A DNA stretch of 64,000 nt, from assembly GCA_047947115.1 (NCBI GenBank), contig CP170459.1:2976001-3040000 (forward strand). Direction: 5' to 3'. The notes under the pieces are model-generated. The model did no database searches. It was not told the origin of the DNA and was given only the letters and a program-made list of their open reading frames with translations. Each line of letters begins with the position of its first letter. Position 1 is the stretch's first letter. The DNA is from Verrucomicrobiota bacterium (GTDB taxonomy: Bacteria; Verrucomicrobiota; Verrucomicrobiia; Limisphaerales; AAA164-E04). The translations under genes were made by a program, and so were the position numbers. This document shows, piece by piece, positions 1,865 to 58,299 of this stretch.

Positions 1865-3688
1865 ATGACCTCCACTTTATTAGGACTCGAAACCGGTGGT
1901 ACGCGATCCACTTTGCTCGTCACGACTGTTGAGGGAGACCTGATCGAAAAACACACTCTTGGGCCAGGTAATTCCAGGCTGTTGGGTGACGTTGGCTTGC
2001 GCAAGTTGTTTGAAGAATGTGCTGCATTGGCTCCTCAACCAGCGGCGATAGGCTTCGGAATGGCGGGTGTCCGTGATGCGAGGGATTGCGCCGTCATCAG
2101 GAAGATCGCGGAAAAAATCTGGCCGGGTGTTCGGATGTGGGTGGATCACGATCTCGCCTCGGCGTTGATGGTGGCGCAGCGTTCTTTCAAAGACACCACC
2201 GCTCACGTGTTGGTGTTATCGGGAACAGGTAGTTGTTGTTTTGGACGCGGTATCCAGGGGAAAGAAGCCAAGTGCGGGGGATGGGGTCATCATCTGGGGG
2301 ATCGCGGCAGCGCTTATGATCTGGCGCACACGGCCATTCGGAAAGTGATCGAAGTATTCGATCAAACCGGCAAATGGCCCAAACTGGGCGAACGTCTCCT
2401 GCATGCCTCGATGCAAAATGAGCCCAACGACTGGATTCAATGGTTTCAGACAGCTCAGAAATCAGAAGTGGCTGCATTGGCCGTCCCTGTCTTTGAAGCT
2501 TGGAAGCAACGTGATGCCTTGGCGGGCAAGGTGATTCATCAGGCAGCGGAGTTGCTGGCCGCCGACGCGCATGCCTGCGCCGAGCGTTTGAATGATTCAG
2601 GTCCCGGTTTTGTGGTGGCCGGCGGTATGTTTTTAAAACAGCCATCTTTCACAAAACTTTTCCAAAAGAAACTCCGGGCCAAACGGCGAAATGCAAGAGT
2701 GCATGTCATTCCGCAAGAGAGTGTCTGGGGAACCATTTATGCGGCTCAATCGCAGCTCGATCAGCAATCAGCTGAAGGAAGAGCGAAGACTTCTGCCCGC
2801 TTGATACCAAGTCGTAGGACACCTCCTGCGAGAAAGGATGTGCTTCCCTCAAGTAATGGGATTTCACTCACGGAAAGACGATTGGATGCATCCATGAATC
2901 TGGACTCCATGAGTGGATCAAACGCTCTGGACCTTTTTATCGACGAGGATGCATCGATTCCGGAGGCGATTCGGAAAGAAAAAAAGAAACTGCTCAAATG
3001 GATCCGCTGGACCACCGAAGCCTTTGAAAGGGGGGGGCGGCTGTTTTATGTGGGGGCGGGAACCAGTGGACGCCTCGGTGTGTTGGATGCCAGTGAATGT
3101 CCACCTACGTTTGGGGTTTCCTCCGAGATGGTTCAGGGCATTATGGCGGGTGGTTCAACCGCATTGTGGAATGCTGTCGAGGGGGCCGAGGATGATTTTG
3201 AAGCGGGTTGGCGGGCTCTTGGGCTGCGTGGTTTCTGTCAAAAAGACCTCGTCCTGGGCATTGCAGCAAGTGGTCGAACACCTTTTGTGCATGGTGCCCT
3301 GGCTTATGCGAGGAGTATGGAGGCGCGCCAGGGATTGTTGTGCTTTAATCCCCACTTGAAATGGCCACGTTTGCACCGGCCGGATGTCATTATATGCCCC
3401 TTGACCGGACCGGAAATCCTCACGGGATCCACTCGATTGAAAGCCGGAACAGCCACCAAACTCGTTTTGAACATGATTACCACCCTGGCGATGGTCGGAA
3501 TCGGCAAAGTCAAAAGCAACCTGATGATTGACGTTCAAGCGACCAACGAAAAACTGCGCGATCGGGCTGCCAGGATGGTGGTCACGCTGACGGGAGCGGA
3601 ATACGATATCGCTGTCAGAGCTTTGGAGCAATCAGCCTGGAAAATTCAAAAGGCCTGCCTCAAATTGGAAAAAAGAGTAAGCCGATAA
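1865..3688 (+). CDS. murQ: Fusion of a BadF/BcrA-type N-acetylsugar kinase and N-acetylmuramic acid 6-phosphate etherase
   Basis: N-terminal GLETGGTRS, SGTGS and GGWGHHLGDRGS. C-terminal SIS domain has GAGTSGRLGVLDASECPPTFG and GPEILTGSTRLKAGTATK. Confidence 0.9.
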   Translation: MTSTLLGLETGGTRSTLLVTTVEGDLIEKHTLGPGNSRLLGDVGLRKLFEECAALAPQPAAIGFGMAGVRDARDCAVIRKIAEKIWPGVRMWVDHDLASALMVAQRSFKDTTAHVLVLSGTGSCCFGRGIQGKEAKCGGWGHHLGDRGSAYDLAHTAIRKVIEVFDQTGKWPKLGERLLHASMQNEPNDWIQWFQTAQKSEVAALAVPVFEAWKQRDALAGKVIHQAAELLAADAHACAERLNDSGPGFVVAGGMFLKQPSFTKLFQKKLRAKRRNARVHVIPQESVWGTIYAAQSQLDQQSAEGRAKTSARLIPSRRTPPARKDVLPSSNGISLTERRLDASMNLDSMSGSNALDLFIDEDASIPEAIRKEKKKLLKWIRWTTEAFERGGRLFYVGAGTSGRLGVLDASECPPTFGVSSEMVQGIMAGGSTALWNAVEGAEDDFEAGWRALGLRGFCQKDLVLGIAASGRTPFVHGALAYARSMEARQGLLCFNPHLKWPRLHRPDVIICPLTGPEILTGSTRLKAGTATKLVLNMITTLAMVGIGKVKSNLMIDVQATNEKLRDRAARMVVTLTGAEYDIAVRALEQSAWKIQKACLKLEKRVSR

Positions 3689-4277
3689 TAGGCTTGATGT
3701 TGAATTTACCGTAGGCGACACCCTGGGCCAGGAAATGACACAGTGCCGTCAGGGCAACGAGGATCAGGGATGACACCAGATACATGCCAAATCCGACGCT
3801 GGTATTCGGTTGGATGACGAGTGCAACACCATTGTAAAGCAACATCATGATACCCAATGCTCCGATGCCCCAGCATAACCAGGACGGAACAGCGGGCACG
3901 CAGTCCAGAAAACGCATCCAGAAAATCGGTGTCAGACTATAGGCTGTCAGGGTAAAGGCTTGTCTATAGGAGGTTTCTGTGTGGAATCCCTCGCAGACCC
4001 ATTGGATGAATTTTCCGCCAAAAAACAGGAGGATCAGCCCCAATAGAAATTGAATGACTTCATAGGTGATGATCTGGTTCTGTTCCAGGTGAATCACCCG
4101 GCCAATCGAACCCGTCTGGGCTCCGAATTGTACCATGCCCCAACCCTCCACCACGCAGCCGGCAACCAGTAGGGGGAGAATGGAAAACAAAAACACCACC
4201 AAGACGTTCCACGACTGGTCGGCGATTGTTTGCCAGCCCTTCTGCGGGGCGAATAGGATGATTAATGATCGAAACAT
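3660..4277 (-). CDS. Yip1-family membrane protein
   Basis: About five hydrophobic segments; P..GW..I start pattern and AYSLTP motif. ATG at 4277 chosen as start. Confidence 0.7.
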   Translation of the reverse strand: MFRSLIILFAPQKGWQTIADQSWNVLVVFLFSILPLLVAGCVVEGWGMVQFGAQTGSIGRVIHLEQNQIITYEVIQFLLGLILLFFGGKFIQWVCEGFHTETSYRQAFTLTAYSLTPIFWMRFLDCVPAVPSWLCWGIGALGIMMLLYNGVALVIQPNTSVGFGMYLVSSLILVALTALCHFLAQGVAYGKFNIKPIIGLLFFPI

Positions 4278-34890: not shown

Positions 34891-34972
34891 TGGTTGTAAT
34901 TGCAATGCGGTGCGAAAGTTTCTGGGAGCCAGATGGTTTTTGGGCCAAAAAGGGGCTAAAATCGAAGAAAAT

Positions 34973-35306
<334 letters not shown>

Positions 35307-35325
35307 TGGAATTAACGAAGAAAAT

Positions 35326-35372
35326 TGGTTGCGGGGACAGGATTTGAACCTGTGACCTTCAGGTTATGAGCC
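35326..35372 (-). other. 3' half of tRNA-fMet, serving as the prophage att junction
   Basis: GGCTCATAACCTGAAGGTCACAGGTTCAAATCCTGTCCCCGCAACCA on the minus strand. Similarity to tRNA stops just 5' of the anticodon loop, about 135 bp from the integrase start. Confidence 0.85.
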
Positions 35373-35507: not shown

Positions 35508-36806
35508 ATGTGCCTAGAAATTAGAAAGTCCAGCAAGTGGTGGTACGGGGTCTTCCGTATCAACGGCGAGAGGACCGTTATTAACCTGCGAGTCCCCATT
35601 ACCGGCAAGCGACCGCCTAAGCGCACCATGCTGGGTGATGACGAGTTTGAGCGGTCACGAGGGAGGGCGCAGCAGGCGTATGAAAAGCAATTCGAGCAGA
35701 TAGAATCCGACCGGACTGGGCAGAAGGCCGTCGCCAAGCTGGCCGAAATGAAGACCGGCAAAGTGGTAGCTTTCCCGGCCCTTGCTGAATTGCCATTGAA
35801 CTGGGATACGATCCCCAGACGCAAGCCCCCGTCCGAGCGATACCGGAACCAATGTCGACTTACTCTGGAACGATTTGCCAAGTATGTCACCAATCACCAA
35901 AAGGGAGCGGTTGAATTTGTTGCCGTCACTCCAAAGACGGCGAAGGATTTCATGGCTGCCGAGGAAGCACGCGGCATCAGTCCGAAGACTTGGAACGACA
36001 CCCTCAAACTGCTTCGGACCACCTTCAAGCATCTTCACCCAAGTTTGAACGATGGGAGTAACCCGTTCCACGGTCTGATTACCAAGGCAACGGAAACCAT
36101 TAACCGAATCCCGTTTACCGTCGAGCAACTCAAAGCAATAACGGAAGCCTGCACCGATGACGACATGATCCGCCCCGTCATCATTACGGGAATGTGTACT
36201 GCAATGCGGCGTGGTGATTGTTGCTTGCTTAAATGGTGCGATGTAGATCTGACCGCCGGATTCCTGACCGTCAAAACAGCCAAGACCGGTCAGACAGTGG
36301 ATATTCCGATTTTCCCCATGCTCAGAGAGGAGCTGAACAAGGCAATGACGGCAACTGCCGGCAAAGGATACTGTTTCCCTGATGCCGCGCTGATGTATCA
36401 ATCCAATTCTGACGGCATCACCTGGCGGGTGAAAAAGGTTTTGGCTCAGGCCCTGGAAGGCCAATCTTTGCAAGTCGCACGGAAGACTGGGAAAAGAAAA
36501 GCATCAGTTCATGACTTCCATTCCTTCCGGGTGACGTGGATCACGTTGGCTCTAGCATCCGGAGTCCCCCTGGAATTGGTTCAGCGTGTCACCGGCCACC
36601 GGACTGTTGAAGTCGTCATGAAGCACTACTTCAAACCTGGGCGGGAGGATTTCCGACAGGCTCTCCTTAAAAGCATGCCTCAAATGATGAGTGAAAAGGC
36701 GAGCGGTTCGGTCAAAGAGGAGATTCGTGCAATTTTGGAGAAAATGACTATTCAATCACTGGAGCTTGATAAACGGAAGTTGCTTGAACTTATTGATATG
36801 GTATAG
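35508..36806 (+). CDS. int: Tyrosine recombinase/phage integrase
   Basis: Catalytic set R (TAMRRGD), K (KTAKT), HxxR (HSFR), H (TGH) and Y (MKHY); next to att. Confidence 0.95.
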   Translation: MCLEIRKSSKWWYGVFRINGERTVINLRVPITGKRPPKRTMLGDDEFERSRGRAQQAYEKQFEQIESDRTGQKAVAKLAEMKTGKVVAFPALAELPLNWDTIPRRKPPSERYRNQCRLTLERFAKYVTNHQKGAVEFVAVTPKTAKDFMAAEEARGISPKTWNDTLKLLRTTFKHLHPSLNDGSNPFHGLITKATETINRIPFTVEQLKAITEACTDDDMIRPVIITGMCTAMRRGDCCLLKWCDVDLTAGFLTVKTAKTGQTVDIPIFPMLREELNKAMTATAGKGYCFPDAALMYQSNSDGITWRVKKVLAQALEGQSLQVARKTGKRKASVHDFHSFRVTWITLALASGVPLELVQRVTGHRTVEVVMKHYFKPGREDFRQALLKSMPQMMSEKASGSVKEEIRAILEKMTIQSLELDKRKLLELIDMV

Positions 36807-36851: not shown

Positions 36852-37583
36852 ATGACTAAAGTAATCACAGCATTTCTCGCGATCATCATTCTGACCCCAG
36901 AAGCAGAAGCGGAGGATCTTCTGCGTTTCAAAAGTAAGTTTCTAGGGGATGGAGTCTTCGAATACGAACTGGATTTTCCTGATGACCGATTTATCGATTT
37001 CGTGAATTTCGATTCTGTGGATTTTAGTGGATGGCAGAGTGGAATCATACTTGATTCCGAGTTTGCAGATAAATGGAGCGAAACCACAAGAGGCTGGCGC
37101 CATGATCCTATTATTTGGGAGACGGTCCCATATGCATCTAAGTTTCGATTGAAAGCAAACTCTGATGCATACCAGGTTTCTAACGTTACAATTGTCTTCA
37201 CTTATCATATGTACCCTTGGGCGGCTCTGGACGGACTTCCAAACAGTATGGAGACACCGCCGAAAACCCGGCTATATGTCAATATGCCTTGCCTGATTCC
37301 CTGTCAGCCGTCAGTGGCAGACGATTCACCTCCAGAACAGATTGCTACTTCACCGGGTTTCACAGACGTAAGAATAGATAGCCTAATCTTCACAAGAGGC
37401 AGACCAACGGGCATTAAATTTGAGGCGCACAATGGAATGCCTGTAAAAATTGAAACAAGCAATGATCTCGACAATTGGGAGAACATAGGTAACACAAAGG
37501 GAACAAGGGGACTAACCACTTGGCATTTCGCTCGTCCAAGCGATGCGGAGAATCAATTCTTTCGCGTTGTTGTTGGGCCATGA
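36852..37583 (+). CDS. Secreted hypothetical protein (prophage cargo)
   Basis: Signal peptide ending AEA; C-terminal IETSNDLDNW...QFFRV; AT-richer than phage core genes. Confidence 0.7.
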   Translation: MTKVITAFLAIIILTPEAEAEDLLRFKSKFLGDGVFEYELDFPDDRFIDFVNFDSVDFSGWQSGIILDSEFADKWSETTRGWRHDPIIWETVPYASKFRLKANSDAYQVSNVTIVFTYHMYPWAALDGLPNSMETPPKTRLYVNMPCLIPCQPSVADDSPPEQIATSPGFTDVRIDSLIFTRGRPTGIKFEAHNGMPVKIETSNDLDNWENIGNTKGTRGLTTWHFARPSDAENQFFRVVVGP

Positions 37584-37662
37584 CCATTGTGAATTAAACC
37601 CATGCGAGCTTGTGCGAAGATTCCTAGTTCGTGCTTTCGGAACCACTAAATGGTTTACCCAC

Positions 37663-37719
37663 TGTTAAAAATTTAACAAACAGCTTGACCTTGCGGTGGT
37701 TTCTGTTAAATTTTTAGCA
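37663..37719 (+). promoter_or_regulatory. Promoter with two palindromic operators for the BlaI-like repressor
   Basis: TGTTAAA-AA-TTTAACA (37663-37678) and TGTTAAA-TT-TTTAGCA (37704-37719) flank TTGACC (37685). The second operator overlaps TGtTAAATT. Confidence 0.7.
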
Positions 37720-37726
37720 ATTAGTC

Positions 37727-38110
37727 ATGAATCTCGATTTCCAATTATCCAAACGTGAAAGACAAATCATGGAGATTTTGCTTTCCCAACCGTCAGCTAC
37801 AGCAGCCGATATTCGATTTTTAATGCCGGAGGCCCCCAGCGATTCGGCTGTCAGAACCCATCTCCGTATATTGGTTGAAAAGGGATATGCACAGCATCGC
37901 AAAGAGGGAAACAAATTTGTTTATTCGGCAAAAGTCTCCAAGAACAAGGCACGGAAATCTGCCCTTCAAAGAATTCTGACTACTTTTTTCGGTGGATCTG
38001 TGGACACAGCTGTAACGGCCTTGTTGGATGTTTCAGACACGCAACTGTCAAAGGCTGAAATAAACCAAATTCAGGGAATCATCGACAAAGCCAAAAAGAG
38101 AGGTAAGTGA
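37727..38110 (+). CDS. BlaI/MecI/CopY family repressor
   Basis: LSKRERQIMEIL, SAVRTHLRILVEKG, FVY and TFFGGS. Confidence 0.92.
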   Translation: MNLDFQLSKRERQIMEILLSQPSATAADIRFLMPEAPSDSAVRTHLRILVEKGYAQHRKEGNKFVYSAKVSKNKARKSALQRILTTFFGGSVDTAVTALLDVSDTQLSKAEINQIQGIIDKAKKRGK

Positions 38111-38111
38111 T

Positions 38112-40028
38112 ATGGAATTCAATACGCTATTGATTCACTGGGAGTGGAAGGGAATCGTTTTACTCACTCTGTCCGCCTGTTTTCTCTGGAGCATGCGAAG
38201 GCGTTCGGCACGCCAACGACATCTCTTTCTTTTTTCGGCACTTCTTTCCCTATTGTTGATTCCGGTGGCTCATCGCTGGTTTTCGAACACCACTTCAAGT
38301 CGATTTCAAATCATCCTCCCTTCAGGATGGGAGCAAGTAGAAGATACATTTCAGATCGGTGTCGATACATTGCGATACAGGAATACCACAGACCATGTTC
38401 AACGTGATGACGATTCAGCAATGGTAAATGGTAATACGAACATCGAACCAAATACTGGAAATGCTCCTTATTCGGTATTTCGAATTTCCGATCTGAGATG
38501 GGATATTTTTTGGGGGATTGGAGTCATTCTTTTGATGATACGACTTGGATGGCAGCACTTGCAGCTGGCACGATTGATCCTAATATCTCCGGAAATCGAA
38601 GATGACCGATTGAAACGGTTGCTTGAACAGACCGTTCTTGATGTGAGGCTGGGCTCCACCCCGAATATGATCGAAACCACCATGCTTGAGGTGCCCGCAA
38701 CTTGGGGGTGGTTCCGGCCGGTTATTTGCTTACCGGCCGGAGCAAGCAGTTGGTCTTCTGAAATCCTAAAGACGGTATTGGAACATGAATGCTCCCACAT
38801 CAAACGCCGAGATTTCCTTTGCCTACATATTGCCAAGATGATTCGTGCGCTGACTTGGTGCAATCCTCTAAGTTGGTGGGCAATTCGTCGATTGCGCAAT
38901 GACATGGAACTTGCCTGTGACGAACAAATCATCGCCAGGGGCACGTCACCATCGCAATACGCTCAGACGCTGCTCAATATGACTCAATTAACTTCTCGGA
39001 TTCCATCCATCTCAGCTATACCTATGGCATCGAAGTCCAACATTCAAAGTAGGATAGAAGCAGTGGTTGCGAAGGACCAAGGAGCCGACACACGCCGGAT
39101 TCGTAAAGAGTGCGTATACATTGCCGGAGTCGCCATGCTTGCTTTGTTCATTGGATGTCAGGGCAGCTCTCCAAAACAAACCATGGCCAATGACTCGAAC
39201 ACTCAATCGCAGCTACCGATGTACGAAAACTTTTCCATCGATGCATGGTTTTTCCCGGAGTTTGTGCGTCAGGAGGATGAATTGAACCACTGGCCAGAAG
39301 TTCCACCCCGTGAAGTGCATGCGTTTAGGGCGTTTGGCGTAAAGGGAGTGGCATACTTGATTGAACGATTGGAGGGAAAACCTCTTGAAAGAATCATCAA
39401 ACTTGAATCCGTTCCAGAGGGAGTCAGAGAACGACTCAGAGAACGGGCTAGAAAACAGCAAGAAACAACTAAACGACACACGGCCGCTCGTCTACTGGGT
39501 GACCTTGGCAAGGATGCAACCGAAGCCATTCCATATCTGGAGGAGGCGGCCAATGATGAAGATTGGTTGCTTAGAGTAGGAGCCAAAGTTGCGTTAATGA
39601 AAATTCGAAATGAACCCATTGATCCATTAATTGACGAGCTATCAGCAACCCTCGGGCATCAGCATTGGAACCGAACAGCAATCATGGTAGGTCAGTTTGG
39701 ATCGCAGGCGGAGAAAGCAATTCCCATCCTCTTGGATATGCTTGAGAAACCTGAAACCATGGATGCTCTCGCAATTGATGCTCACGCAATTGATGCTTTG
39801 GGCATGATAGCCGGACAACCAGAAAAATGTGTTCCTGCGATTGCCGAATTTCTGAAGCATCCGTCAACGGCCTGTCGCCAGAAAGCCATCACGGCCTTGA
39901 TGAGCTTTGCAGAACATAACCAACTTGTGTTACCTGCTCTCCAATCTGCGACAAAAGACAAAGATGGATTGGTAAGTTCACGGGCAAAATGGATCATCGG
40001 GATGTTAGAAAAAGGAAACGCAGAGTAA
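38112..40028 (+). CDS. M56 (BlaR1-type) metalloprotease sensor with a C-terminal HEAT-repeat domain
   Basis: PATWGWFRPVICLP, HECSHIKRRD (HExxH), NPLSW and ELACDE; C-terminal R..AA..LG.LG..A..AIP.L repeats. Confidence 0.9.
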   Translation: MEFNTLLIHWEWKGIVLLTLSACFLWSMRRRSARQRHLFLFSALLSLLLIPVAHRWFSNTTSSRFQIILPSGWEQVEDTFQIGVDTLRYRNTTDHVQRDDDSAMVNGNTNIEPNTGNAPYSVFRISDLRWDIFWGIGVILLMIRLGWQHLQLARLILISPEIEDDRLKRLLEQTVLDVRLGSTPNMIETTMLEVPATWGWFRPVICLPAGASSWSSEILKTVLEHECSHIKRRDFLCLHIAKMIRALTWCNPLSWWAIRRLRNDMELACDEQIIARGTSPSQYAQTLLNMTQLTSRIPSISAIPMASKSNIQSRIEAVVAKDQGADTRRIRKECVYIAGVAMLALFIGCQGSSPKQTMANDSNTQSQLPMYENFSIDAWFFPEFVRQEDELNHWPEVPPREVHAFRAFGVKGVAYLIERLEGKPLERIIKLESVPEGVRERLRERARKQQETTKRHTAARLLGDLGKDATEAIPYLEEAANDEDWLLRVGAKVALMKIRNEPIDPLIDELSATLGHQHWNRTAIMVGQFGSQAEKAIPILLDMLEKPETMDALAIDAHAIDALGMIAGQPEKCVPAIAEFLKHPSTACRQKAITALMSFAEHNQLVLPALQSATKDKDGLVSSRAKWIIGMLEKGNAE

Positions 40029-40111
40029 TGTGACCCTTCTTTCTGAAATCGATCCTCCTGTCAATAGTAGAAGCTGACAACGAATTAAACGTAAGTTCCA
40101 TTGTGCGAAGA

Positions 40112-40930
40112 TTATTGGTTGGACTCTTGCTTGTTGTTACCTATTTTGCGATTTAATTTTTCAATCAACTTGGACGCTCTGCGACTTACAAAAGGGTCCG
40201 GATCTCGAACAAGTGGTTTTAAAAAGTGGATCGCACGTTCTGGTTGGTGCATGCTTGCTATACGATAGGTGGCCCAAAGTCGATCATTGCTTGTAGATCT
40301 GATTCCGTTATACAAAACCGAATGCACATAATTTGATGATTCGTTGGAGTATTTGTTATCTAGTTCTGCTAAAGCATTGTAAGAAAACAATTTGTCAGAT
40401 GTGCTTGTGCTGTTTGTGTGTTGGGATAAGGCATGTATAATATTGATCGAATTGTTTCCAATCTTCCCGATAAACCTGTAGGCATGCTGGCGGGTCGCGA
40501 GTTGATATTTTGATTCGTCCAAATATTTCGTGAAATACTGAGCTGCCTGAGGTCCGTATTCTTCCATCAATCCAAAAATCTCATAGTCTACATCATTCTT
40601 CAACTTCAGTGGATAGCGAGTTCTAACATAGTTGGGCATCCATGACCATATTGTGGTTTTCAACTTATTCATGGCAGTTGAGTGAGTTTCCGCGTTCTTG
40701 CTCAACCATATTAGCCCTTCTGGCCCTGAATCTACTAAAGCCTTTCTGGCATCCATTGCATCATCTAATCGTCCTTCTGCTGAGGCTGCTCGTATTTTGT
40801 GTAGAATAGATGAGTAGTGGAAATTATTGATTATTGAAACGGGACTCTTGGTGAAAAGACTGAAGTAAGTAATTACGAAAATTACTGAGAACAGAATGAT
40901 CATCCGTTTTTTTCTGGTCGTTGTCATCAT
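40112..40930 (-). CDS. Membrane-anchored HEAT-repeat-like protein
   Basis: Basic N-terminus plus one transmembrane helix; helical repeats ending LVRDPDPFVSRRA; AT-rich. Confidence 0.65.
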   Translation of the reverse strand: MMTTTRKKRMIILFSVIFVITYFSLFTKSPVSIINNFHYSSILHKIRAASAEGRLDDAMDARKALVDSGPEGLIWLSKNAETHSTAMNKLKTTIWSWMPNYVRTRYPLKLKNDVDYEIFGLMEEYGPQAAQYFTKYLDESKYQLATRQHAYRFIGKIGNNSINIIHALSQHTNSTSTSDKLFSYNALAELDNKYSNESSNYVHSVLYNGIRSTSNDRLWATYRIASMHQPERAIHFLKPLVRDPDPFVSRRASKLIEKLNRKIGNNKQESNQ

Positions 40931-50916: not shown

Positions 50917-51492
50917 ATGAGCACATCCAAACCAAAAAAACGCGCAGGAGTTCCGCCAAATTCGCAAAAACCCCAGATAAATTGCGCTTTTGACGAGGTT
51001 GTTCCGCTCGAAAAACTCGTCCCAAATCCACGGAACCCGAACCAGCATCCGCCATCGCAAGTCGCGCTTCTTGCCAAGGTAATCGCCCATCAGGGTTGGC
51101 GTTCGCCGATTGTCGTTTCTCGTCGTTCTGGTTTCATCGTCTCCGGTCACGGACGTTTTGAAGCCGCCAAGGCATTGGGGTGCTCGCAAGTGCCGGTCGA
51201 TTATCAGGACTTCAAAACCGACGCGGACGAGTGGGCACATCTGGTCGCCGACAATCGGATTGCGGAGCTTGCCGAAGTTGATGCCAACGGAATCCGAGAA
51301 CTACTCTCCGAACTCAAAGCCGAGGACTTCGATTTGGATTTGGCTGGCTTCGACGCGAGCGCGTTGGAAGGCCTGTTGGCCGAGCCGCAAGAGCCCGAGC
51401 CACCAGAAGATTTCAAGCCAGTCGATGAGGACTTGCCGACCGAGTATCAATGTCCCAAATGCCAGTATCGCTGGAGCGGTAAACCTGCGTGA
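50917..51492 (+). CDS. ParB/Srx-like N-terminal domain protein with a C-terminal zinc-ribbon-like motif
   Basis: LVPNPRNPNQH, GWRSPIVV, IVSGHGRFEAA and ADNRIAELA; C-terminal YQCPKCQYRW. Confidence 0.88.
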   Translation: MSTSKPKKRAGVPPNSQKPQINCAFDEVVPLEKLVPNPRNPNQHPPSQVALLAKVIAHQGWRSPIVVSRRSGFIVSGHGRFEAAKALGCSQVPVDYQDFKTDADEWAHLVADNRIAELAEVDANGIRELLSELKAEDFDLDLAGFDASALEGLLAEPQEPEPPEDFKPVDEDLPTEYQCPKCQYRWSGKPA

Positions 51493-51740
51493 GCGACCCA
51501 TGTTCGAAGGATAAACTAACAGCCCTGCGTCATGCCATTGATGGTATCGATGAGGCAATCTGTGGTTTGATTGCCACTCGGATCGCCCTTTCACATCAAG
51601 CGCAAGAACTCAAACTTCAATCTCGAATCCCGACCTATGACCCACGACGTGAAATCGAAATCCAACAACGATACGAACGCCGATGGTGCGGGGCTTCGAC
51701 CGTTGCCCGCTCCATCTTGAACCTCTGCCGTGAAGACTGA
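51489..51740 (+). CDS. Monofunctional chorismate mutase (AroQ/CM type II)
   Basis: LRHAIDGIDEAICGLIATR...K...YDPRRE. R14, R31, K42, D51 and E55 match the spacing of E. coli R11, R28, K39, D48 and E52. Confidence 0.85.
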   Translation: MSDPCSKDKLTALRHAIDGIDEAICGLIATRIALSHQAQELKLQSRIPTYDPRREIEIQQRYERRWCGASTVARSILNLCRED

Positions 51741-52977
51741 CAAACCGCCATACCGCGTGCCAACGATGAAGGAGATAGCCCAGATCCCGGACAACGGACT
51801 GAGGCTAGTTTCCACTTTCAGCGGTTGTGGGGGATCATGCCTCGGCTACCGCATGGCCGGTTTTCGTGTTATTTGGGCCAACGAGTTCATCCCAGCCGGA
51901 GCGGATGTTTACCGCGCCAACAACCCGACGACGCACCTCGACACCCGTGACATCCGAAAAGTTCAGCCGGAGGAGATCCTTGAGATCACAGGATTGCAGA
52001 AGGGCGAACTCGATTGCTTAGAGGGCTCTCCTCCATGTGCCTCGTTTTCTACCGCTGGCAAACGGCATAAGCACTGGGGAAAAGCTAAACAGTACAGTGA
52101 CACCGTCCAACGAACGGATGATCTGTTCTTCGAGTTCACTCGATTACTGGAGGGGCTACAACCAAAGGTGTTCACGGCGGAAAACGTCAGCGGCTTGGTC
52201 AAGGGTGTTGCCAAGGGCTACTTCCTTGAAATCCTGGCCGAACTCAAATCCTGTGGCTACCGTGTAGGCTGCAAGGTGCTCGACGCTCAGTGGCTGGGTG
52301 TTCCTCAAGCCCGGCAACGAACGATCTTTGTTGGCGTTCGGGAGGACTTGGGCAAAGAGCCCGTTTTCCCGAAACCACTGCCATACCGCTATAGCTTGAA
52401 GGATGCTCTTCCCTGGATCGTGCGCGGCAAATACGGACCAACCTGGAAACAGGCAAACATCCCAAGTCCCACGGTCAACGCGCATGGTTCCTACAATCCT
52501 GAAACCAGCCACCAGGGTTTGGAGTTGGTCGAAGCCCGAATCGTGGGTGGCACCGGCGCGCCGTTCGATCACAAGGGCCAAGCGTTCGACCTGAATCAAC
52601 CATCACCTACGATTCTCGGGACCAAGCCGAATCAGTTCGAGGTCGACATGGGCCGCTTTGCCATCGGTCGGGAGTGGGACAAACTGAAACCAGGGGAGGC
52701 ATCGGGCAAATACTTCAACCTTGTGCGACCTCATCCCGATCATCCTTGCCCGACCATTTGCGCAAGCCACGGCCATCCCGGTGTTGCCAGTGTCACCCAT
52801 CCAACCGAAAAGCGGAAGCTCACCATCGACGAGTTAAAACGCATATGTGCATTTCCGGATGATTTTGTTTTAAGCGGAAGCTACTCCCAACAGTGGGAAC
52901 GACTCGGGAGGGCAGTTCCACCTGTCATGTCCTTTCACATCGCACGAACCATACGAGATGAAATCTTCAACCTTTAA
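51730..52977 (+). CDS. DNA cytosine-C5 methyltransferase-fold enzyme, predicted carboxymethyltransferase
   Basis: Motif I FSGCGG, IV GSPPC (C103), VI ENV, VIII QARQR; motif X is LGRAVPP instead of GNAVPP. Confidence 0.88.
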   Translation: MKTDKPPYRVPTMKEIAQIPDNGLRLVSTFSGCGGSCLGYRMAGFRVIWANEFIPAGADVYRANNPTTHLDTRDIRKVQPEEILEITGLQKGELDCLEGSPPCASFSTAGKRHKHWGKAKQYSDTVQRTDDLFFEFTRLLEGLQPKVFTAENVSGLVKGVAKGYFLEILAELKSCGYRVGCKVLDAQWLGVPQARQRTIFVGVREDLGKEPVFPKPLPYRYSLKDALPWIVRGKYGPTWKQANIPSPTVNAHGSYNPETSHQGLELVEARIVGGTGAPFDHKGQAFDLNQPSPTILGTKPNQFEVDMGRFAIGREWDKLKPGEASGKYFNLVRPHPDHPCPTICASHGHPGVASVTHPTEKRKLTIDELKRICAFPDDFVLSGSYSQQWERLGRAVPPVMSFHIARTIRDEIFNL

Positions 52978-53629
52978 CGTCCCCAAGCATTGGAGCTTTA
53001 AGAACGTAACCGTTGCAAAGCACTTCGACCAGCATGTGCGCGAATCCCTTCCGTGGTATGATCTGGCCACGAACGCTGTTGCGCATTTTGCCAGGCACTA
53101 CATCCCGCACAATGGCGTCGTTTACGACATCGGGGCATCTACCGGAAACATTGGCCACGCGATCAAGGAGACTCTTGTTCAACGTCAGGCGCAGTTTTTC
53201 GCCATTGAGGAGAGCCCGGAGATGGCAGAGCGCTATGACGGGCCACCCCAACTTGTCGTCGCTGATGCGGTGGCACATGAGTTCAAGCCCTTTGACTTCG
53301 CTGTGTGTTTCCTGGTGCTGATGTTCCTGCCAGTCGAAATACGGATGGAGTTCCTTCGCAAATTGCGAGGGCTCACCAAACCTGGTGGTGCCTTGGTTGT
53401 CGTCGACAAGGTTCAGATGCCAGCCGGGTATGTCGGAACCGCCTTCAGTCGCCTGACTATGCAGCAGAAGTTGGCTGTGGGAGCGAAGCCGGAGGAAATC
53501 CTGCGCAAAGAACTCTCGCTTGCCGGATACCAACGTCCGCTTGATCCGCAGACACTCCCCGAAGGAGCTTTGCCATTCTTCCAGGTCGGCGAGTTTGTCG
53601 GGTGGATCCTGCCTGCGGCCGAACGATAA
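52958..53629 (+). CDS. CmoA-like carboxy-S-adenosylmethionine synthase
   Basis: WSF..VAKHFDQHVRESLPWY, VYDIGASTG, LVLMFL, KPGGALVVVDK and EEILRKELSL follow the CmoA motif order. Confidence 0.78.
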   Translation: MKSSTFNVPKHWSFKNVTVAKHFDQHVRESLPWYDLATNAVAHFARHYIPHNGVVYDIGASTGNIGHAIKETLVQRQAQFFAIEESPEMAERYDGPPQLVVADAVAHEFKPFDFAVCFLVLMFLPVEIRMEFLRKLRGLTKPGGALVVVDKVQMPAGYVGTAFSRLTMQQKLAVGAKPEEILRKELSLAGYQRPLDPQTLPEGALPFFQVGEFVGWILPAAER

Positions 53630-53632
53630 GTC

Positions 53633-54274
53633 ATGGCTGATGCTGGCGCCATCTCAACCACACAACTTGCTAAGCTCTCCGGGCTGAGTGATCGACGCCT
53701 TCGTGAACTGGCCAGCGAGGGGTGGTTCCCCAAATCATCCGATGGGCAGTATCAGTTGGTTTCCACGATTCAGGGATTGCTTCGTTATTACCGGGAACGG
53801 GAGCAATCCCGGATCATTCTCGATTCCTACGACAGCATGGGATCGTGTTCCGCTGCTACAGGCATTCCGATAACGACCATCAAGCAGGCCAAACGCCAGG
53901 GGTGTTCAGGATTTCGTGGGAGCCGTGTTTACCTGGCTCCGCTGCTTCGGTGGTTGTTCGAAGACACGGACGGTTCACAAGTCAACTACGACCATGAGCG
54001 GGCGCAGCACGTCGTCCTGCAAAACGCCAAGTTGAAGGTGGAGCTACGGCAACTCAAGAAGGAGTTGCTGCCGGTCGAGGAGGTCAAGCACTTGGGGGCC
54101 GAATTGGGTGCTGCGATTCGCAAAGTGATTTCACGACTGCACCGCTCCGCGCCTTCGCTGGAAGGACAAGACATCGACGTGATCGAATCACGACTCAAGG
54201 AGGAAGAGGACGAGATACTGAAGCAGCTTCACACCTTGGATGAGCGGTTCAAGTCTTGGGATCGAGCGGATTGA
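53633..54274 (+). CDS. Terminase small subunit (Nu1-like)
   Basis: N-terminal winged HTH (QLAKLSGLSDRRLRELASEG) and coiled coil ending ELLPVEEV; upstream of the large subunit. Confidence 0.75.
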   Translation: MADAGAISTTQLAKLSGLSDRRLRELASEGWFPKSSDGQYQLVSTIQGLLRYYREREQSRIILDSYDSMGSCSAATGIPITTIKQAKRQGCSGFRGSRVYLAPLLRWLFEDTDGSQVNYDHERAQHVVLQNAKLKVELRQLKKELLPVEEVKHLGAELGAAIRKVISRLHRSAPSLEGQDIDVIESRLKEEEDEILKQLHTLDERFKSWDRAD

Positions 54275-54284
54275 TTTCGTAGGT

Positions 54285-55088
54285 CTAAGGCTGGGGTGCT
54301 TCGAGGGGGTATTGCTCAGCCAATTCGGGAGCGATTCTGGAAAGGGCTTCGTGTGCTTCTCTTTGCCTTTGCCTCTGGAACATTTCATAGCGATTTCGAG
54401 GCCGAGTTGAATCCGTATCGACTGTGATTGAAACAAATGAATTTGTGATTGAGTTTAGGAGGATGGGAATACCGTTTGTGGCTTTTCTGTCAATTTTTGA
54501 TAAGTAAATGGCGGCTTCGAGTCGTACCGTGTTATCTGGATCATCGAGCATAGTTTTGAAGAAATTTTTCTTGTAGTCCCAGTGTTGGGTTCGTTTTGAA
54601 ATGGACTTGATCAAATCAAAGTAACCATCGGAAGACCCTTGCGACTTATAAGCCGGATACAATTCCATCAATTCTATCACGAATGGATCCAAATTTTCAA
54701 TTGGCAGGCCTTTGAGATATGAAAGGGCAATCTGCTTTTTATAAATACCCTTCACTTCGACTGGTAATAATTTTCTGATCTCGTCCGGAATTTTAAGGTA
54801 GAGCTCATAATAGGCCTTGCTGAGGGTTGAATCTGCTGAATGGATTTTGTTGATTAGGTAGGGAACGCTGTTTGTTCCCATATTTGAAAAAGCTACTTTT
54901 GCTGCGTTTATGGTGTCAGCAAGTCCCGGATGCCCTTGCTCCCCGTAGAACCACTCATCTGCATTTTTCCCTTCGTACACAGGTAAGTCTGAATCTTTCA
55001 TCAAAGCAATAAAGACTACTGCTGTCACTACTAACAAGAGAAACGCAAAGGATGCGGCAATAATGGCTTTATGTGATGGGGCTTTCAT
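54285..55088 (-). CDS. Membrane-anchored HEAT-repeat protein (moron)
   Basis: One transmembrane helix; PVYEGKNADEWF, MGTNSVPYLI and LDDPDNTVRLEAA..L; AT-rich and antisense to the phage genes. Confidence 0.75.
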   Translation of the reverse strand: MKAPSHKAIIAASFAFLLLVVTAVVFIALMKDSDLPVYEGKNADEWFYGEQGHPGLADTINAAKVAFSNMGTNSVPYLINKIHSADSTLSKAYYELYLKIPDEIRKLLPVEVKGIYKKQIALSYLKGLPIENLDPFVIELMELYPAYKSQGSSDGYFDLIKSISKRTQHWDYKKNFFKTMLDDPDNTVRLEAAIYLSKIDRKATNGIPILLNSITNSFVSITVDTDSTRPRNRYEMFQRQRQREAHEALSRIAPELAEQYPLEAPQP

Positions 55089-55204
55089 CTGCTCTTTGTC
55101 GATCAATCTTTTAAGGCGGCGTTGAACCTAAAAATTCAAATGCCTTTTCTTGCCCAATTCGACAATGGACACCCTCCCACCGTTCATTTTAAGAGGTCCA
55201 TCGT

Positions 55205-55678: not shown

Positions 55679-57445
55679 ATGCGAACGCCACGCCATCCCC
55701 TCATCGAAGGATTTTGCTCCGCCTGTCGCCCAGCCGATAGGCGGCCACCATGGCAATGGTGCGAGCAGCATGTCCAGGTTGATGAGACTTCCCCGATTCC
55801 TGGTCGGTGGCGTTCGGATGCCTCCCCTTGGGTGCGCGCAGTGATGGAGGATTTTGCCGACAACGCCATCCGGGACATTGCCGTTCAATGTGCGGCTCAG
55901 AGTGCCAAGACCCAAACGGTCATGAACTGCGCCTGCTGGGCCATCGCCGAGGATCCAGGCCCTGCCATGTGGGTGACGGCTACCAAGGATGAGCTTCGGG
56001 ATTTTATGCGGGACCGGCTTACGCCAACCTTCGAATCCTGCCGCCCGGTCAGGGATCGCATGGCCGAACCCACCTTGTCAGGATTCGCTTTCGACGGGAT
56101 GCCTTTCTACGCTGGTTGGTCGGGATCAAAAGCACGCCTGCAATCCAAACCCATCCGCTGGCTCTTTTGTGATGAGGTTCGCAATTACCCGCCTGGGCGT
56201 TTGGAGATGGTCCTCAAACGAACACGATCCTTCTGGAACTCTCGTCGGTTCCTGATCTCGACGCCCGGGACCAAGGGCGACGCCATGGACACCGCCTACC
56301 GGGCGGGGGATCAGCGTATCTGGCATTTTGAGTGCCCGAAGTGTCACCAGTTACAGCCGCTCAAGTTCGAGCAGTTGAAATGGGATTCTAACGACACGAC
56401 CAAGCCCGAAGGCAAATGGCGATTTGATCTGCTTGCCGAGACAATCCGGTTCGAGTGCGTTTCCTGCTCGCACAAGATCAAGGACACTCCCATTGATCGT
56501 CGATGGATCGAGAACCACGGGGAGTTTGTCCCCCAGAATCCCAACGCTCCACGATCCAAGGTTAGCTACACTTGGAACGCGCTCCTACCGCATTGGATCG
56601 AGTGGAGGTCGATTGTCGAGGAGTTCCTGGCTGCGGTCGATGCCATGCGCCTGGAGGGGGACATAGAGCCCATGTATACCTTCGTCACCGAAACCCTGGG
56701 TGAACCTTGGGACTTGGATCGGTGGCTGATTACGAGTGATGATTACATCCAGCAGCGTAAAGGGGAATACGATTTTGGCGATGCCTGGCCGATTGAAAAG
56801 ACAAGATTCATCGCAGCCGACAGGCAGGCCCGTGGCGGTGAGCATTACTTTTGGGTGGCTCGGGCCTTTGGGGCTGGTGGAGCAAGTCGCCTAATTGGTT
56901 ACGGCCGCTGCAACACGACGACCGAACTCGAAGAAATCCGAAAGCAGTTAAACGTCCCCGTCGTCAACGCCATGATTGATTCCGGGTTCAAGGCCTCTGA
57001 GGTTTATCGATTTTGCCAGGCCACGGGCTGGAAAGCGATGAAGGGTGATGACGCCGAGTGGTTCCTTACCCAAGACCCGAGGACTAAGAAGACCGTCCGC
57101 CGAGTCTGGCGTCGGGTGTTGGTTGATCCCACACTTGGGACCAAGAAATCAAGAGTCCGTCGACATCTTCCGCTCTTCCAGTGGTCCAACCCGAGCATCA
57201 AGGATCACTTGGCATTGTTTACGCACGGAGTAGTCGGGCAATGGTCGATACCGAGAACGACAGGCCGGGATTATGTCGATCAGATGACCGCCGAGGTCCG
57301 AGAGGAGAAAGAGGATTCACGAGGCCGCATCAAGGTCATTTGGGTTCAGAAGCGTCGGGATAACCATTACCTGGATTGTGAGTTGATGATTGATGCGGCG
57401 GCGATTATTACGAATGTGCTGAGGGCGAGTAGTGAATCGAGTTGA
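55679..57445 (+). CDS. Terminase large subunit (lambda GpA family)
   Basis: PGRWR, AQSAKT Walker A, LFCDEV, ISTPG, CPKC and CVSC zinc motifs, LGEPW, IDSG and NHYLDC. Confidence 0.95.
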   Translation: MRTPRHPLIEGFCSACRPADRRPPWQWCEQHVQVDETSPIPGRWRSDASPWVRAVMEDFADNAIRDIAVQCAAQSAKTQTVMNCACWAIAEDPGPAMWVTATKDELRDFMRDRLTPTFESCRPVRDRMAEPTLSGFAFDGMPFYAGWSGSKARLQSKPIRWLFCDEVRNYPPGRLEMVLKRTRSFWNSRRFLISTPGTKGDAMDTAYRAGDQRIWHFECPKCHQLQPLKFEQLKWDSNDTTKPEGKWRFDLLAETIRFECVSCSHKIKDTPIDRRWIENHGEFVPQNPNAPRSKVSYTWNALLPHWIEWRSIVEEFLAAVDAMRLEGDIEPMYTFVTETLGEPWDLDRWLITSDDYIQQRKGEYDFGDAWPIEKTRFIAADRQARGGEHYFWVARAFGAGGASRLIGYGRCNTTTELEEIRKQLNVPVVNAMIDSGFKASEVYRFCQATGWKAMKGDDAEWFLTQDPRTKKTVRRVWRRVLVDPTLGTKKSRVRRHLPLFQWSNPSIKDHLALFTHGVVGQWSIPRTTGRDYVDQMTAEVREEKEDSRGRIKVIWVQKRRDNHYLDCELMIDAAAIITNVLRASSESS

Positions 57446-57567
57446 TACGCCATTTTTGCTTGAGTGCGGGAAATGTATCTTGTTGAATTCCACTATGGCC
57501 TAACAAGTTATGAGGCGCGTTTGAATATGCCCGTGTTGAGTTTTTGAAATCTAGATTGCATGCGCAC

Positions 57568-58299
57568 ATGAAGAATTTGGCGAAAAGACCAATGTGGAGG
57601 AGAAAACGATGGTTGGTTATCATCGTAGTGATTGCTGTGGTTTTTGGTGCCAGTGCAATCCGGGAATTTCGGATCAGTAAACTACCCCCGAAGGAGCGGC
57701 GGTTAAAAAACTCCCAGTTCAGTTTCAGGATAGCTTCATTAAAGTATCGCTGGGGAAGTCGCATGGTGGATGGGATTGAGCAAGTGACTGGCCCTATTGC
57801 AATAGCCAGCCAATTTGCTGACTATCTTGGTTCAAAAAAGAAAGTCGCGTCTGATGAATTACGAGACGCATCCCATTTCGCTTCTATTGAAATCGTGGGC
57901 ATTTATGAAGATCGACATGAATTTAATAACGCGGCTGCAAAAATACACCTCAAGGGACTCTCTAGAAATTCCACGTTTATAATCACAAAGATGGATGATC
58001 AAAAAAGGTTTCAGAACGGTGAATTGAGAGTCCCTAACCAATTCGCTGAACAAGCCAGAAAAATCTTGGACAACACGGAGGTGTGCATTGTTAAATCGTT
58101 CCCATATGACTCGGAAAAGGAGATCAGCCAAGCTGTGGATACAATGAGAGCAAAGGGTGTTCGAGCAGTTTCAATGTCTTTTCGAGATGACTTCGGTGAT
58201 CCTCATAAGTCGATTTTCGTGCTTACCGAGGATAAGGAAATTGCAGAACAGGCCTTAGAATCATTTCCACGAGTTCAGCCAATCCCTAACCCCAAATAA
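57568..58299 (+). CDS. Membrane-anchored hypothetical protein (moron)
   Basis: RRKR plus one transmembrane helix; AT-rich; inserted between terminase and head genes. The start is uncertain. Confidence 0.65.
   Translation: MKNLAKRPMWRRKRWLVIIVVIAVVFGASAIREFRISKLPPKERRLKNSQFSFRIASLKYRWGSRMVDGIEQVTGPIAIASQFADYLGSKKKVASDELRDASHFASIEIVGIYEDRHEFNNAAAKIHLKGLSRNSTFIITKMDDQKRFQNGELRVPNQFAEQARKILDNTEVCIVKSFPYDSEKEISQAVDTMRAKGVRAVSMSFRDDFGDPHKSIFVLTEDKEIAEQALESFPRVQPIPNPK

What the first reader, a model, noticed from the sequence alone, without database searches (positions are those of the whole stretch)
50917..53629. Prophage operon predicted to make 5-carboxymethylcytosine DNA: chorismate mutase + C5-MTase-fold enzyme + CmoA-like carboxy-SAM synthase
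Seen: four genes with overlapping starts and stops (ParB-like, AroQ chorismate mutase, C5-MTase fold, CmoA-like) lie directly before the terminase small subunit. Established: chorismate mutase makes prephenate. CmoA uses prephenate plus SAM to make carboxy-SAM (Cx-SAM), which CmoB normally uses on tRNA. No cmoB is present in the window, and the only adjacent SAM-type transferase acts on DNA cytosine. Inference: the operon is a complete route chorismate -> prephenate -> Cx-SAM -> 5-carboxymethyl-dC, probably protecting phage DNA from restriction. From memory (unverified), a CmoA plus cytosine carboxymethyltransferase pair has been reported in a cyanophage. I know of no description with a built-in chorismate mutase in a PVC temperate phage.
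Basis: partly seen in the sequence, partly recalled or inferred. Interest (0 to 1): 0.95.

Follow-up and report, generated by a model that had tools for sequence, protein, structure and literature searches.

The report
Prophage carboxymethylcytosine operon with chorismate mutase
An integrated bacterial virus carries the enzyme pair, published in 2025, that is predicted to put carboxymethyl groups on its DNA cytosines, plus a small optional chorismate mutase gene that likely supplies the prephenate this chemistry consumes.

Summary
The four overlapping genes are real and lie in a 41-kb att-bounded prophage. The methyltransferase-fold protein meets the published CmoX definition (SPPC, Arg394 = Arg350; best PDB hit 8YF3). 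The CmoA-like protein lacks E. coli Arg199, as the characterised phage CmoA does, and carries an alternative invariant Arg193. Among 80 related viral loci, CmoA accompanies 68 of 69 Arg-type and 0 of 11 Asn-type enzymes. So the core is the known CmoA/CmoX 5-carboxymethylcytosine system, without the CmoY ligase. The add-on is an 83-aa AroQ chorismate mutase with intact catalytic residues, under purifying selection, present in 18 of 26 related prophage types and in 5 distant CmoX loci. It likely supplies prephenate, an open question the CmoX paper names; I found it in no paper. It is dispensable: 8 types lack it. No activity is shown. The scan noted the same trio in at least eight findings on other DNA. 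Verdict: new variant of a known kind.

The parts
50917..51492 (+). ParB N-terminal-domain protein with a C-terminal CPKC motif; the usual CmoX neighbour; role unknown
   Evidence: PHROG ParB-like E 1e-37; ParB-like gene in 74 of 80 related viral loci; ParBc noted in PMC12783734
51489..51740 (+). 83-aa monofunctional AroQ chorismate mutase of the short AroQ-delta-like fold; R14, R31, K42, P48, D51, R54, E55
   Evidence: Pfam CM_2 40.5 bits; model pLDDT 95, best folds 2W1A TM 0.81/0.86 and 5HUD 0.90/0.89; invariant residues; pN/pS 0.08-0.17 against the two closest relatives
51730..52977 (+). CmoX-type DNA cytosine-C5 carboxymethyltransferase (predicted)
   Evidence: Best PDB hit 8YF3, E 4.9e-64, against 4.2e-27 for M.HaeIII; F30/E52/F53/D74, SPPC 100-103 and R394 match SpCmoX F25/E47/F48/D69, SPPC 95-98 and R350
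52027..52038 (+). SPPC motif with the catalytic Cys103
52909..52911 (+). Arg394 (motif X Asn->Arg), the Cx-SAM selectivity residue of CmoX
   Evidence: definition from PMC12783734
52462..52758 (+). Variable region with three P(S/C)PT(V/I) TL-like motifs (residues 245, 291, 339); relatives add or swap a fourth module
   Evidence: TL consensus from PMC2413257 passages
52958..53629 (+). Phage CmoA-like carboxy-SAM synthase (predicted); Glu185 at the E. coli Arg199 column; invariant Arg193
   Evidence: Top structural matches are CmoA 4GEK Z 19.8 (rmsd 3.4, 206 aligned), 4IWN and 1IM8; residue table; arginine alternation
53633..54274 (+). Terminase small subunit, directly downstream
   Evidence: phrog_57 E 6e-17
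55679..57445 (+). Terminase large subunit
   Evidence: Pfam GpA_ATPase and GpA_nuclease
35316..35372 (.). Left attachment repeat: 57 bp identical to the 3' part of a tRNA-Met gene 41.1 kb away (G000:C1:3052437-3052493, beyond the window)
35508..36806 (+). Tyrosine integrase of the prophage
   Evidence: Pfam Phage_integrase E 1.2e-15

Best explanation
This is a prophage-borne CmoA/CmoX cassette predicted to convert cytosines in DNA to 5-carboxymethylcytosine, with an optional built-in chorismate mutase that likely supplies its prephenate. Steps: (1) The 83-aa AroQ protein likely turns host chorismate into free prephenate, bypassing the host's only other chorismate mutase, a CM-PDT-ACT fusion (family and residues shown; activity and purpose inferred). 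(2) The CmoA-like protein likely makes Cx-SAM from SAM and prephenate (shown for S-B43 CmoA; inferred here from fold and co-variation). (3) CmoX likely transfers the carboxymethyl group to C5 of cytosine through Cys103, with Arg394 holding the carboxylate (diagnostic residues shown; activity inferred), probably at GC-containing sites (weak inference). (4) There is no CmoY ligase, so the end product is predicted to be uncapped 5cxmC. The cassette sits directly before the terminase genes, so it likely marks progeny DNA against restriction during lytic growth (inferred; HhaI protection was shown for SpCmoX).
For: CmoX definition met. Of the 80 best viral loci, 68 of 69 Arg-type enzymes have a CmoA gene nearby and 0 of 11 Asn-type do. 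CmoAs of the same KELSL..QRP type sit in one locus with a CmoY or glutamine-amidotransferase ligase in 15 of those 80 loci, which implies a carboxyl handle. Of 111 distinct phage CmoA motifs, 108 carry Arg at exactly one of three positions: 24 at the Arg199 column, 5 at the S-B43 position, 79 at our Arg193. Mutase: in 21 relatives at 28% mean column identity the invariant columns are D21, R31, K42, R54 and E55. P48 and D51 align with the T52P and V55D changes that make M. tuberculosis CM active without its partner (PMC9910054 passages). Purifying selection. All 12 viral hits and all 15 strong metagenome hits (of 25) of this mutase subfamily follow the ParB gene, and all but one cut-off contig continue into CmoX. 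Five divergent mutases sit in other CmoX-CmoA loci. Two loci with 89-95% DNA identity in the flanking genes carry mutases only about 32% alike in the same slot. The host has chorismate synthase and only a PheA-type CM, with no CmoA or CmoB of its own.
Against: No activity was measured. The CmoA-like protein scores far under the CmoA equivalog cut-off and lacks Arg199 and Asn132. Arg193 was not shown to reach the active site, and the non-CmoA enzyme CysG is only 1.4 Z units behind. The mutase is under every NCBIfam cut-off and lacks the long third helix of E. coli CM. It is absent from 8 of 26 related prophage types, whose hosts (3 checked) also have only one PheA-size CM, so host make-up does not explain its loss. 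Its enrichment with Arg-type loci is not significant in the 80-locus set (7 of 67 against 0 of 11, p 0.58). One CmoA-bearing Staphylococcus phage has a neighbouring methyltransferase with Gly at the Arg position, so CmoA does not always imply CmoX.
Confidence: 0.72

Rival explanations
1. CmoA/CmoX make 5cxmC from host prephenate; the mutase is an active but unrelated passenger, for example a booster of aromatic amino acid synthesis, as viral chorismate mutases have been read before.
For: It is dispensable (8 of 26 types lack it; 62 of 69 Arg-type viral loci lack it). A rumen virome paper reads a viral chorismate mutase as an aromatic amino acid gene (PMC10465536 passages).
Against: Every strong hit of this subfamily lies in the ParB-CmoX slot, with overlapping stop and start codons. 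Distant mutases recur in CmoX-CmoA loci. No other aromatic-pathway gene was found among the prophage proteins scanned.
Confidence: 0.08
2. The AroQ protein is a weak or non-catalytic chorismate/prephenate-binding module that needs or regulates a partner (like AroQ-delta enzymes activated by DAHP synthase), for example CmoA.
For: Its closest folds are AroQ-delta enzymes, which are poor catalysts alone (PMC9910054). It lacks the E. coli CM helix-3 residues.
Against: All cationic active-site residues are invariant, and it carries the Pro and Asp of autonomous mutases.
Confidence: 0.09
3. The CmoA-like protein is not a Cx-SAM synthase, so the product is ordinary 5mC or another alkyl group.
For: Arg199 and Asn132 are absent; the score is under the equivalog cut-off; CysG/BelI enzymes score close.
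Against: The characterised S-B43 CmoA also lacks Arg at that column. Arg394 in the transferase; wild-type SpCmoX accepts only Cx-SAM. 68 of 69 against 0 of 11 co-variation, and ligase neighbours.
Confidence: 0.06
4. 5cxmC is made but then capped by an unrecognised prophage or host enzyme, so the final base is an amide or ester.
For: Native S-B43 DNA held only the glycine-capped base. Many prophage ORFs have no family. The host has one asparagine-synthetase-like hit outside the prophage.
Against: No Asn_synthase or CmoY homologue in the prophage, and no extra conserved gene between ParB and terS in relatives.
Confidence: 0.05

Closest known systems
CmoA-CmoX-CmoY system of Synechococcus phage S-B43 (Yang et al., Nat Commun 2025, PMC12783734; CmoX structure 8YF3)
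   Same: C5-MTase homologue with SPPC and the motif X Arg, an adjacent phage CmoA, no CmoB, and a ParB-domain neighbour (noted by the paper for 1,660 contigs); about 42% identity to SpCmoX.
   Different: Adds a chorismate mutase; lacks CmoY; CmoA only about 24% identical, with the lid arginine moved; three TL-like motifs in the variable region instead of one; integrated temperate phage of a likely Verrucomicrobiota host, with the cassette directly before terS.
E. coli CmoA/CmoB tRNA cmo5U pathway (4GEK, 4IWN; PMC3663124)
   Same: CmoA fold; Y39, D62, G64, S66, D117, F137 and an acidic residue at 164 are kept.
   Different: Arg199 -> Glu185, Asn132 -> Phe118; no CmoB in the genome; the acceptor is predicted to be DNA cytosine.
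AroQ-delta chorismate mutases (M. tuberculosis 2W1A/5MPV, C. glutamicum 5HUD)
   Same: Short three-helix protomer (TM 0.81-0.90); R14/R31/K42/R54/E55 align with R18/R35/R46/R58/E59.
   Different: Lys instead of Arg46; naturally carries the Pro and Asp that had to be evolved into MtCM; phage-encoded, with no DAHP synthase nearby.
ParB-CmoX-CmoA cassettes of Moraxella phage Mcat8 and Streptomyces phage TurkishDelight
   Same: Same order ParB - Arg-type C5-MTase - (ligase) - CmoA; Mcat8 has the same KELSL..QRP CmoA directly before the terminase genes.
   Different: Neither has the mutase; TurkishDelight has a glutamine-amidotransferase ligase. Neither is characterised, to my knowledge.
Multispecific phage C5 methyltransferases with tandem target-recognition domains (cited in PMC2413257; details recalled)
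   Same: Several TL-like motifs in tandem, with modules gained and swapped between relatives.
   Different: Multispecificity is untested here; only the last motif has the upstream Arg and downstream HP of the consensus.

Membership tests
CmoX (DNA cytosine C5-carboxymethyltransferase) | C5-MTase homologue closest to SpCmoX | tested here: met
   PF00145 185.8 bits; 8YF3 best of 48 PDB sequences, E 4.9e-64
CmoX | SPPC catalytic motif | tested here: met
   S100-P101-P102-C103
CmoX | Arg at the SpCmoX R350 position | tested here: met
   R394
CmoX | Adjacent CmoA gene | tested here: met
   20-nt overlap with the CmoA-like gene
CmoX | Forms 5cxmC with Cx-SAM and not 5mC with SAM | not testable with these tools
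   needs LC-MS
CmoX | GC target motif as for SpCmoX | tested here: inconclusive
   Arg nine residues before the last TL motif in both proteins, which correlates with a 5' G; two further TL-like motifs
CmoA (Cx-SAM synthase) | CmoA fold with lid helices | tested here: met
   Top three VIA matches are CmoA/YecO, Z 19.3-19.8; next CysG 18.4
CmoA, bacterial equivalog | TIGR00740 curated cut-off 193.3 bits | tested here: not met
   54.4 bits; filed as phage CmoA-like (phrog_4752), not as the bacterial tRNA enzyme
CmoA, bacterial equivalog | Arg199 binding the carboxylate (PMC3663124) | tested here: not met
   Glu185 here and Glu188 in the active S-B43 enzyme
Phage CmoA | An arginine at one of three alternating lid positions | tested here: met
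   Arg193; 108 of 111 motifs have exactly one. This criterion is my own; spatial equivalence not shown
Phage CmoA | Makes Cx-SAM from SAM and prephenate | not testable with these tools
   needs an enzyme assay
AroQ chorismate mutase (PF01817) | Pfam gathering score | tested here: met
   40.5 against 27 bits; under all NCBIfam CM cut-offs
AroQ chorismate mutase | Four cationic active-site residues plus Asp and Glu | tested here: met
   R14, R31, K42, R54, D51, E55
AroQ-alpha (E. coli CM type) | Long helix 3 with Ser84 and Gln88 (roles recalled) | tested here: not met
   The protein ends before these columns; the fold matches AroQ-delta, which is also short
AroQ chorismate mutase | Intertwined homodimer and chorismate-to-prephenate activity | not tested
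Isochorismate-pyruvate lyase (PchB) | Closer to PchB than to chorismate mutases | tested here: not met
   HMM E 0.006 against 4.7e-10; TM at most 0.71 against 0.81-0.90
CmoA-CmoX-CmoY hypermodification system | CmoY amide ligase | tested here: not met
   No Asn_synthase among the prophage proteins scanned; S-B43 CmoY gives no tblastn hit in the genome

The most novel reading that the evidence does not exclude
This prophage family encodes a self-sufficient chorismate-to-DNA pathway: an autonomous, feedback-free mini chorismate mutase feeds a CmoA with a relocated catalytic arginine, and a multispecific CmoX with swappable recognition modules leaves uncapped 5-carboxymethylcytosine as the final base, which was not seen in native S-B43 DNA. 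Phages recruited mutases into this slot repeatedly, so viral chorismate mutases listed as amino-acid auxiliary metabolic genes are largely DNA-modification supply genes.
Probability: 0.25. Interest if true: 0.72.

Novelty: new variant of a known kind. Interest (0 to 1): 0.5.

Why it matters
The CmoX paper names prephenate availability in hosts as an open question. A mutase wedged into the cassette is a direct, cheaply testable answer: complementation and LC-MS in laboratory E. coli. It would also recast viral chorismate mutases as DNA-defence supply genes. The arginine alternation points to how phage CmoAs work without Arg199. A three-gene chorismate-to-5cxmC cassette without a capping ligase would also be a handy tool for placing carboxyl handles on DNA. 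The core chemistry itself is already published.

Tried and rejected
Mutase against 50,697 GenBank phages: no match at E 0.01. A broader viral scan with the 21-sequence mutase alignment could not run, as it had no conserved stretch. Independent origins of phage mutases: the trees are poorly resolved; the 10 mutases of this prophage clade group apart from the host PheA domain (support 87 and 74) and the five distant ones scatter, but AU tests reject neither one phage clade (p 0.22) nor grouping with host PheA (p 0.20). Host make-up as the reason for mutase loss: three hosts with mutase-less prophages and the hosts with mutase-bearing ones all have a PheA-size CM, and none of 5 checked has AroH, so no link. 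Expression: contigs of three estuary metatranscriptome runs cover parts of ParB, the mutase and CmoX of relatives (mostly 90-99% alike), some across gene junctions, but the runs were chosen with this stretch and may hold DNA, so this is no evidence of transcription. Promoter scan: 1 site against 3.5 expected. Four-base palindrome bias (CGCG 0.46 and GTAC 0.20 in the prophage, against 0.86 and 0.45 in the host) does not give the target. Phylum sample: 3 of 401 genomes matched the CmoA profile, the two others being distant CmoAs. The rumen virome supplements gave no chorismate hit, and one file was unreadable, so I could not tell whether that mutase lies beside CmoX.
Full report
Observation. Four + strand genes lie at 50917-51492, 51489-51740, 51730-52977 and 52958-53629, overlapping by 4, 11 and 20 nt, with terS 3 nt downstream. 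They match ParB_N, CM_2, DNA_methylase and CmoA-type models. They sit in a prophage of about 41.1 kb, bounded by a 57-bp repeat (window 35316-35372 and the 3' part of a tRNA-Met beyond the window). It has an integrase, replication genes, terminases, portal, protease, capsid and tail genes. Close relatives occur in genomes titled Verrucomicrobiota and in 7 of 300 sampled genomes of the window's own order, so the host is likely a Verrucomicrobiota bacterium.

What is published. Yang et al. 2025 (PMC12783734; I read parts 1-4 of 8, covering abstract, results, discussion and part of the methods) showed that phage S-B43 CmoA makes Cx-SAM from SAM and prephenate, CmoX makes 5cxmC at GC, and CmoY caps it with glycine. 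They defined CmoX by SPPC plus Arg350, counted 5,615 candidates, noted ParBc neighbours, and named prephenate availability as needing study. [quoted passage not shown] Searches of open-access PMC and bioRxiv found no paper joining a chorismate mutase to this system: 0 for chorismate mutase + phage + CmoA, only this paper for CmoX, and 7 listings each, none on the link as judged from titles and abstract starts. One rumen virome paper lists a viral chorismate mutase as an amino-acid gene (passages). Subscription journals are not covered.

The transferase. Its best PDB hit is SpCmoX 8YF3 (E 4.9e-64, against 4.2e-27 for M.HaeIII). It keeps F30, E52, F53, D74, SPPC 100-103 and R394. Of these, 69 have Arg in motif X (67 by pattern, 2 read by eye) and 11 have Asn. 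CmoA lies beside 68 of the 69 (the exception's contig ends soon after) and beside 0 of the 11, which show 1.5-4 kb downstream. One counter-example exists elsewhere: a Staphylococcus phage CmoA neighbours a methyltransferase with Gly there.

The CmoA-like protein. Its model (pLDDT 80) matches CmoA structures best (4GEK Z 19.8, rmsd 3.4, 206 aligned), with CysG at 18.4 (Foldseek ranks them mixed). It is far under the TIGR00740 cut-off. It keeps most cofactor contacts listed in PMC3663124 (passages) but has Glu185 at Arg199 and Phe118 at Asn132. The active S-B43 enzyme also has Glu and Leu there. Of 170 CmoA hits, 162 showed the lid motif, giving 111 distinct ones: 79 have Arg only at our position 193, 24 only at the Arg199 column, 5 only at the S-B43 position, 1 has two and 2 have none. 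I infer a compensating shift; spatial equivalence is not shown. CmoAs of our type share a locus with an amide ligase in 15 of the 80 loci, which fits a carboxyl product.

The mutase. It passes the Pfam cut-off but no NCBIfam one. Its model (pLDDT 95, three helices) best matches AroQ-delta enzymes (TM 0.81-0.90; E values above 0.001 for so short a chain) and matches PchB less. R14, R31, K42 and R54 align with the four cationic residues of M. tuberculosis CM, and P48 and D51 with the T52P and V55D changes that make it autonomous (PMC9910054 passages). In 21 relatives at 28% mean column identity the invariant columns are D21, R31, K42, R54 and E55. pN/pS is 0.17 and 0.08 against the two closest relatives; the 14 more distant pairs give 0.32-0.61 with saturated synonymous sites. 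It lacks the long third helix of E. coli CM.

Distribution. After clustering CmoA at 97%, the clade of this prophage has 30 rows: 19 with the mutase (two are one sequence, so 18 including the window), 8 without, and 3 unscorable; the whole tree needs 4 changes. All clusters were found by CmoA searches. Where the mutase is missing, the ParB stop overlaps the CmoX start directly (4 junctions shown). Conversely, 12 of 12 viral hits and the 15 strong of 25 metagenome hits of this mutase follow ParB and, except one cut contig, precede CmoX; the 10 weak hits had no CmoX, and the one read in full lies in a cellular aro operon. L017 and L018 share 89-95% DNA identity in the flanking genes but carry mutases about 32% alike. 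Of the 80 viral loci, 7 have a mutase: 2 of this clade and 5 distant ones, all 5 over the Pfam cut-off, one within a full ParB-CM-CmoX-CmoY-CmoA run. The enrichment against Asn loci is not significant (p 0.58), and trees cannot settle one origin or several.

Host context. The genome (95.8% complete) has chorismate synthase, one other CM as a CM-PDT-ACT fusion, no AroH, no other C5-MTase, no CmoA but the prophage's, and no CmoB over its cut-off. That such fusions are feedback-regulated and pass prephenate on to Phe is established knowledge, recalled. This gives a motive for a free mutase, but hosts of mutase-less prophages look the same, so the gene is at most a booster.

No CmoY. No asparagine-synthetase family member was found among the prophage proteins scanned, and S-B43 CmoY has no hit in the genome. 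The predicted end product is uncapped 5cxmC; native S-B43 DNA held only the capped base.

A side feature. The CmoX variable region has three TL-like motifs. Among 29 related loci, 13 have the same three modules, 10 add module B2, 5 add B1, and 1 lacks the first. This recalls multispecific methyltransferases (consensus from PMC2413257 passages) and is untested.

Verdict. A member of the CmoX family by its published sequence criteria, with a divergent phage CmoA and an unpublished optional mutase that likely supplies prephenate. My estimates: core chemistry about 0.9, supply role about 0.8, whole about 0.72. The scan's notes report the same trio in eight findings on other genomes (unchecked AI notes) and none on look-alikes of this stretch. 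New variant of a known kind; interest 0.5.

Noticed in passing
window 52462-52758; L002, L005, L018, L032, L097: The CmoX variable region is built of 35-45-aa modules each ending in a TL-like motif; relatives gain or swap a fourth module (B1 or B2), which suggests a multispecific carboxymethyltransferase.
   Followed up: partly
L092:1658-4063 and L091 (G535): Two CmoX copies carry an intein-like insert (C...HN-C, about 350 aa) exactly at the catalytic Cys; in L091 the insert is itself interrupted by a transposase-like ORF.
   Followed up: no
G535 contigs C5, C6, C9: One genome holds five full CmoA copies of this prophage family plus a fragment, four of them with the mutase.
   Followed up: partly
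L047-L060: A separate clade pairs KELSL..QRP CmoA with C5-MTases that have GFPC rather than SPPC but Arg in motif X; L059 has an asparagine-synthase gene between them. The published SPPC filter would miss these.
   Followed up: partly
L010:702-2237 and 3236-3952 (Gordonia phage Evaa): A CmoA-like gene before the terminase with no C5-MTase detected nearby; the upstream 511-aa ParB-fusion protein has no Pfam methyltransferase hit, so the acceptor enzyme is unclear.
   Followed up: partly
L008:5010-6709 (Staphylococcus phage SPbeta-like): CmoA next to a C5-MTase with Gly at the Arg350 position, near a nucleoside 2-deoxyribosyltransferase gene.
   Followed up: no
window 34963-35048 and G000:C1:3052607-3052673: Extra degenerate tRNA-Met-like copies with a palindromic insert flank both prophage ends, likely scars of earlier integrations; a GIY-YIG ORF (35019-35306) lies between the left copies.
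   Followed up: no
window 36852-40930, 54285-55106, 57544-58299: Cargo genes in the prophage: a BlaI-like repressor with an M56 peptidase/HEAT protein, other HEAT-repeat proteins, and low-GC inserts between terS, terL and portal that differ among relatives.
   Followed up: no
P0128-P0151: Several distant mutase representatives begin with a peptide that matches the other-frame reading of the ParB CPKC tail, hinting that they also follow ParB; contexts were not fetched.
   Followed up: no
L073, L074 (G288, G231): Distant CmoA-like genes of the S-B43 arginine type in other genomes of the same class, one directly before terminase genes.
   Followed up: no
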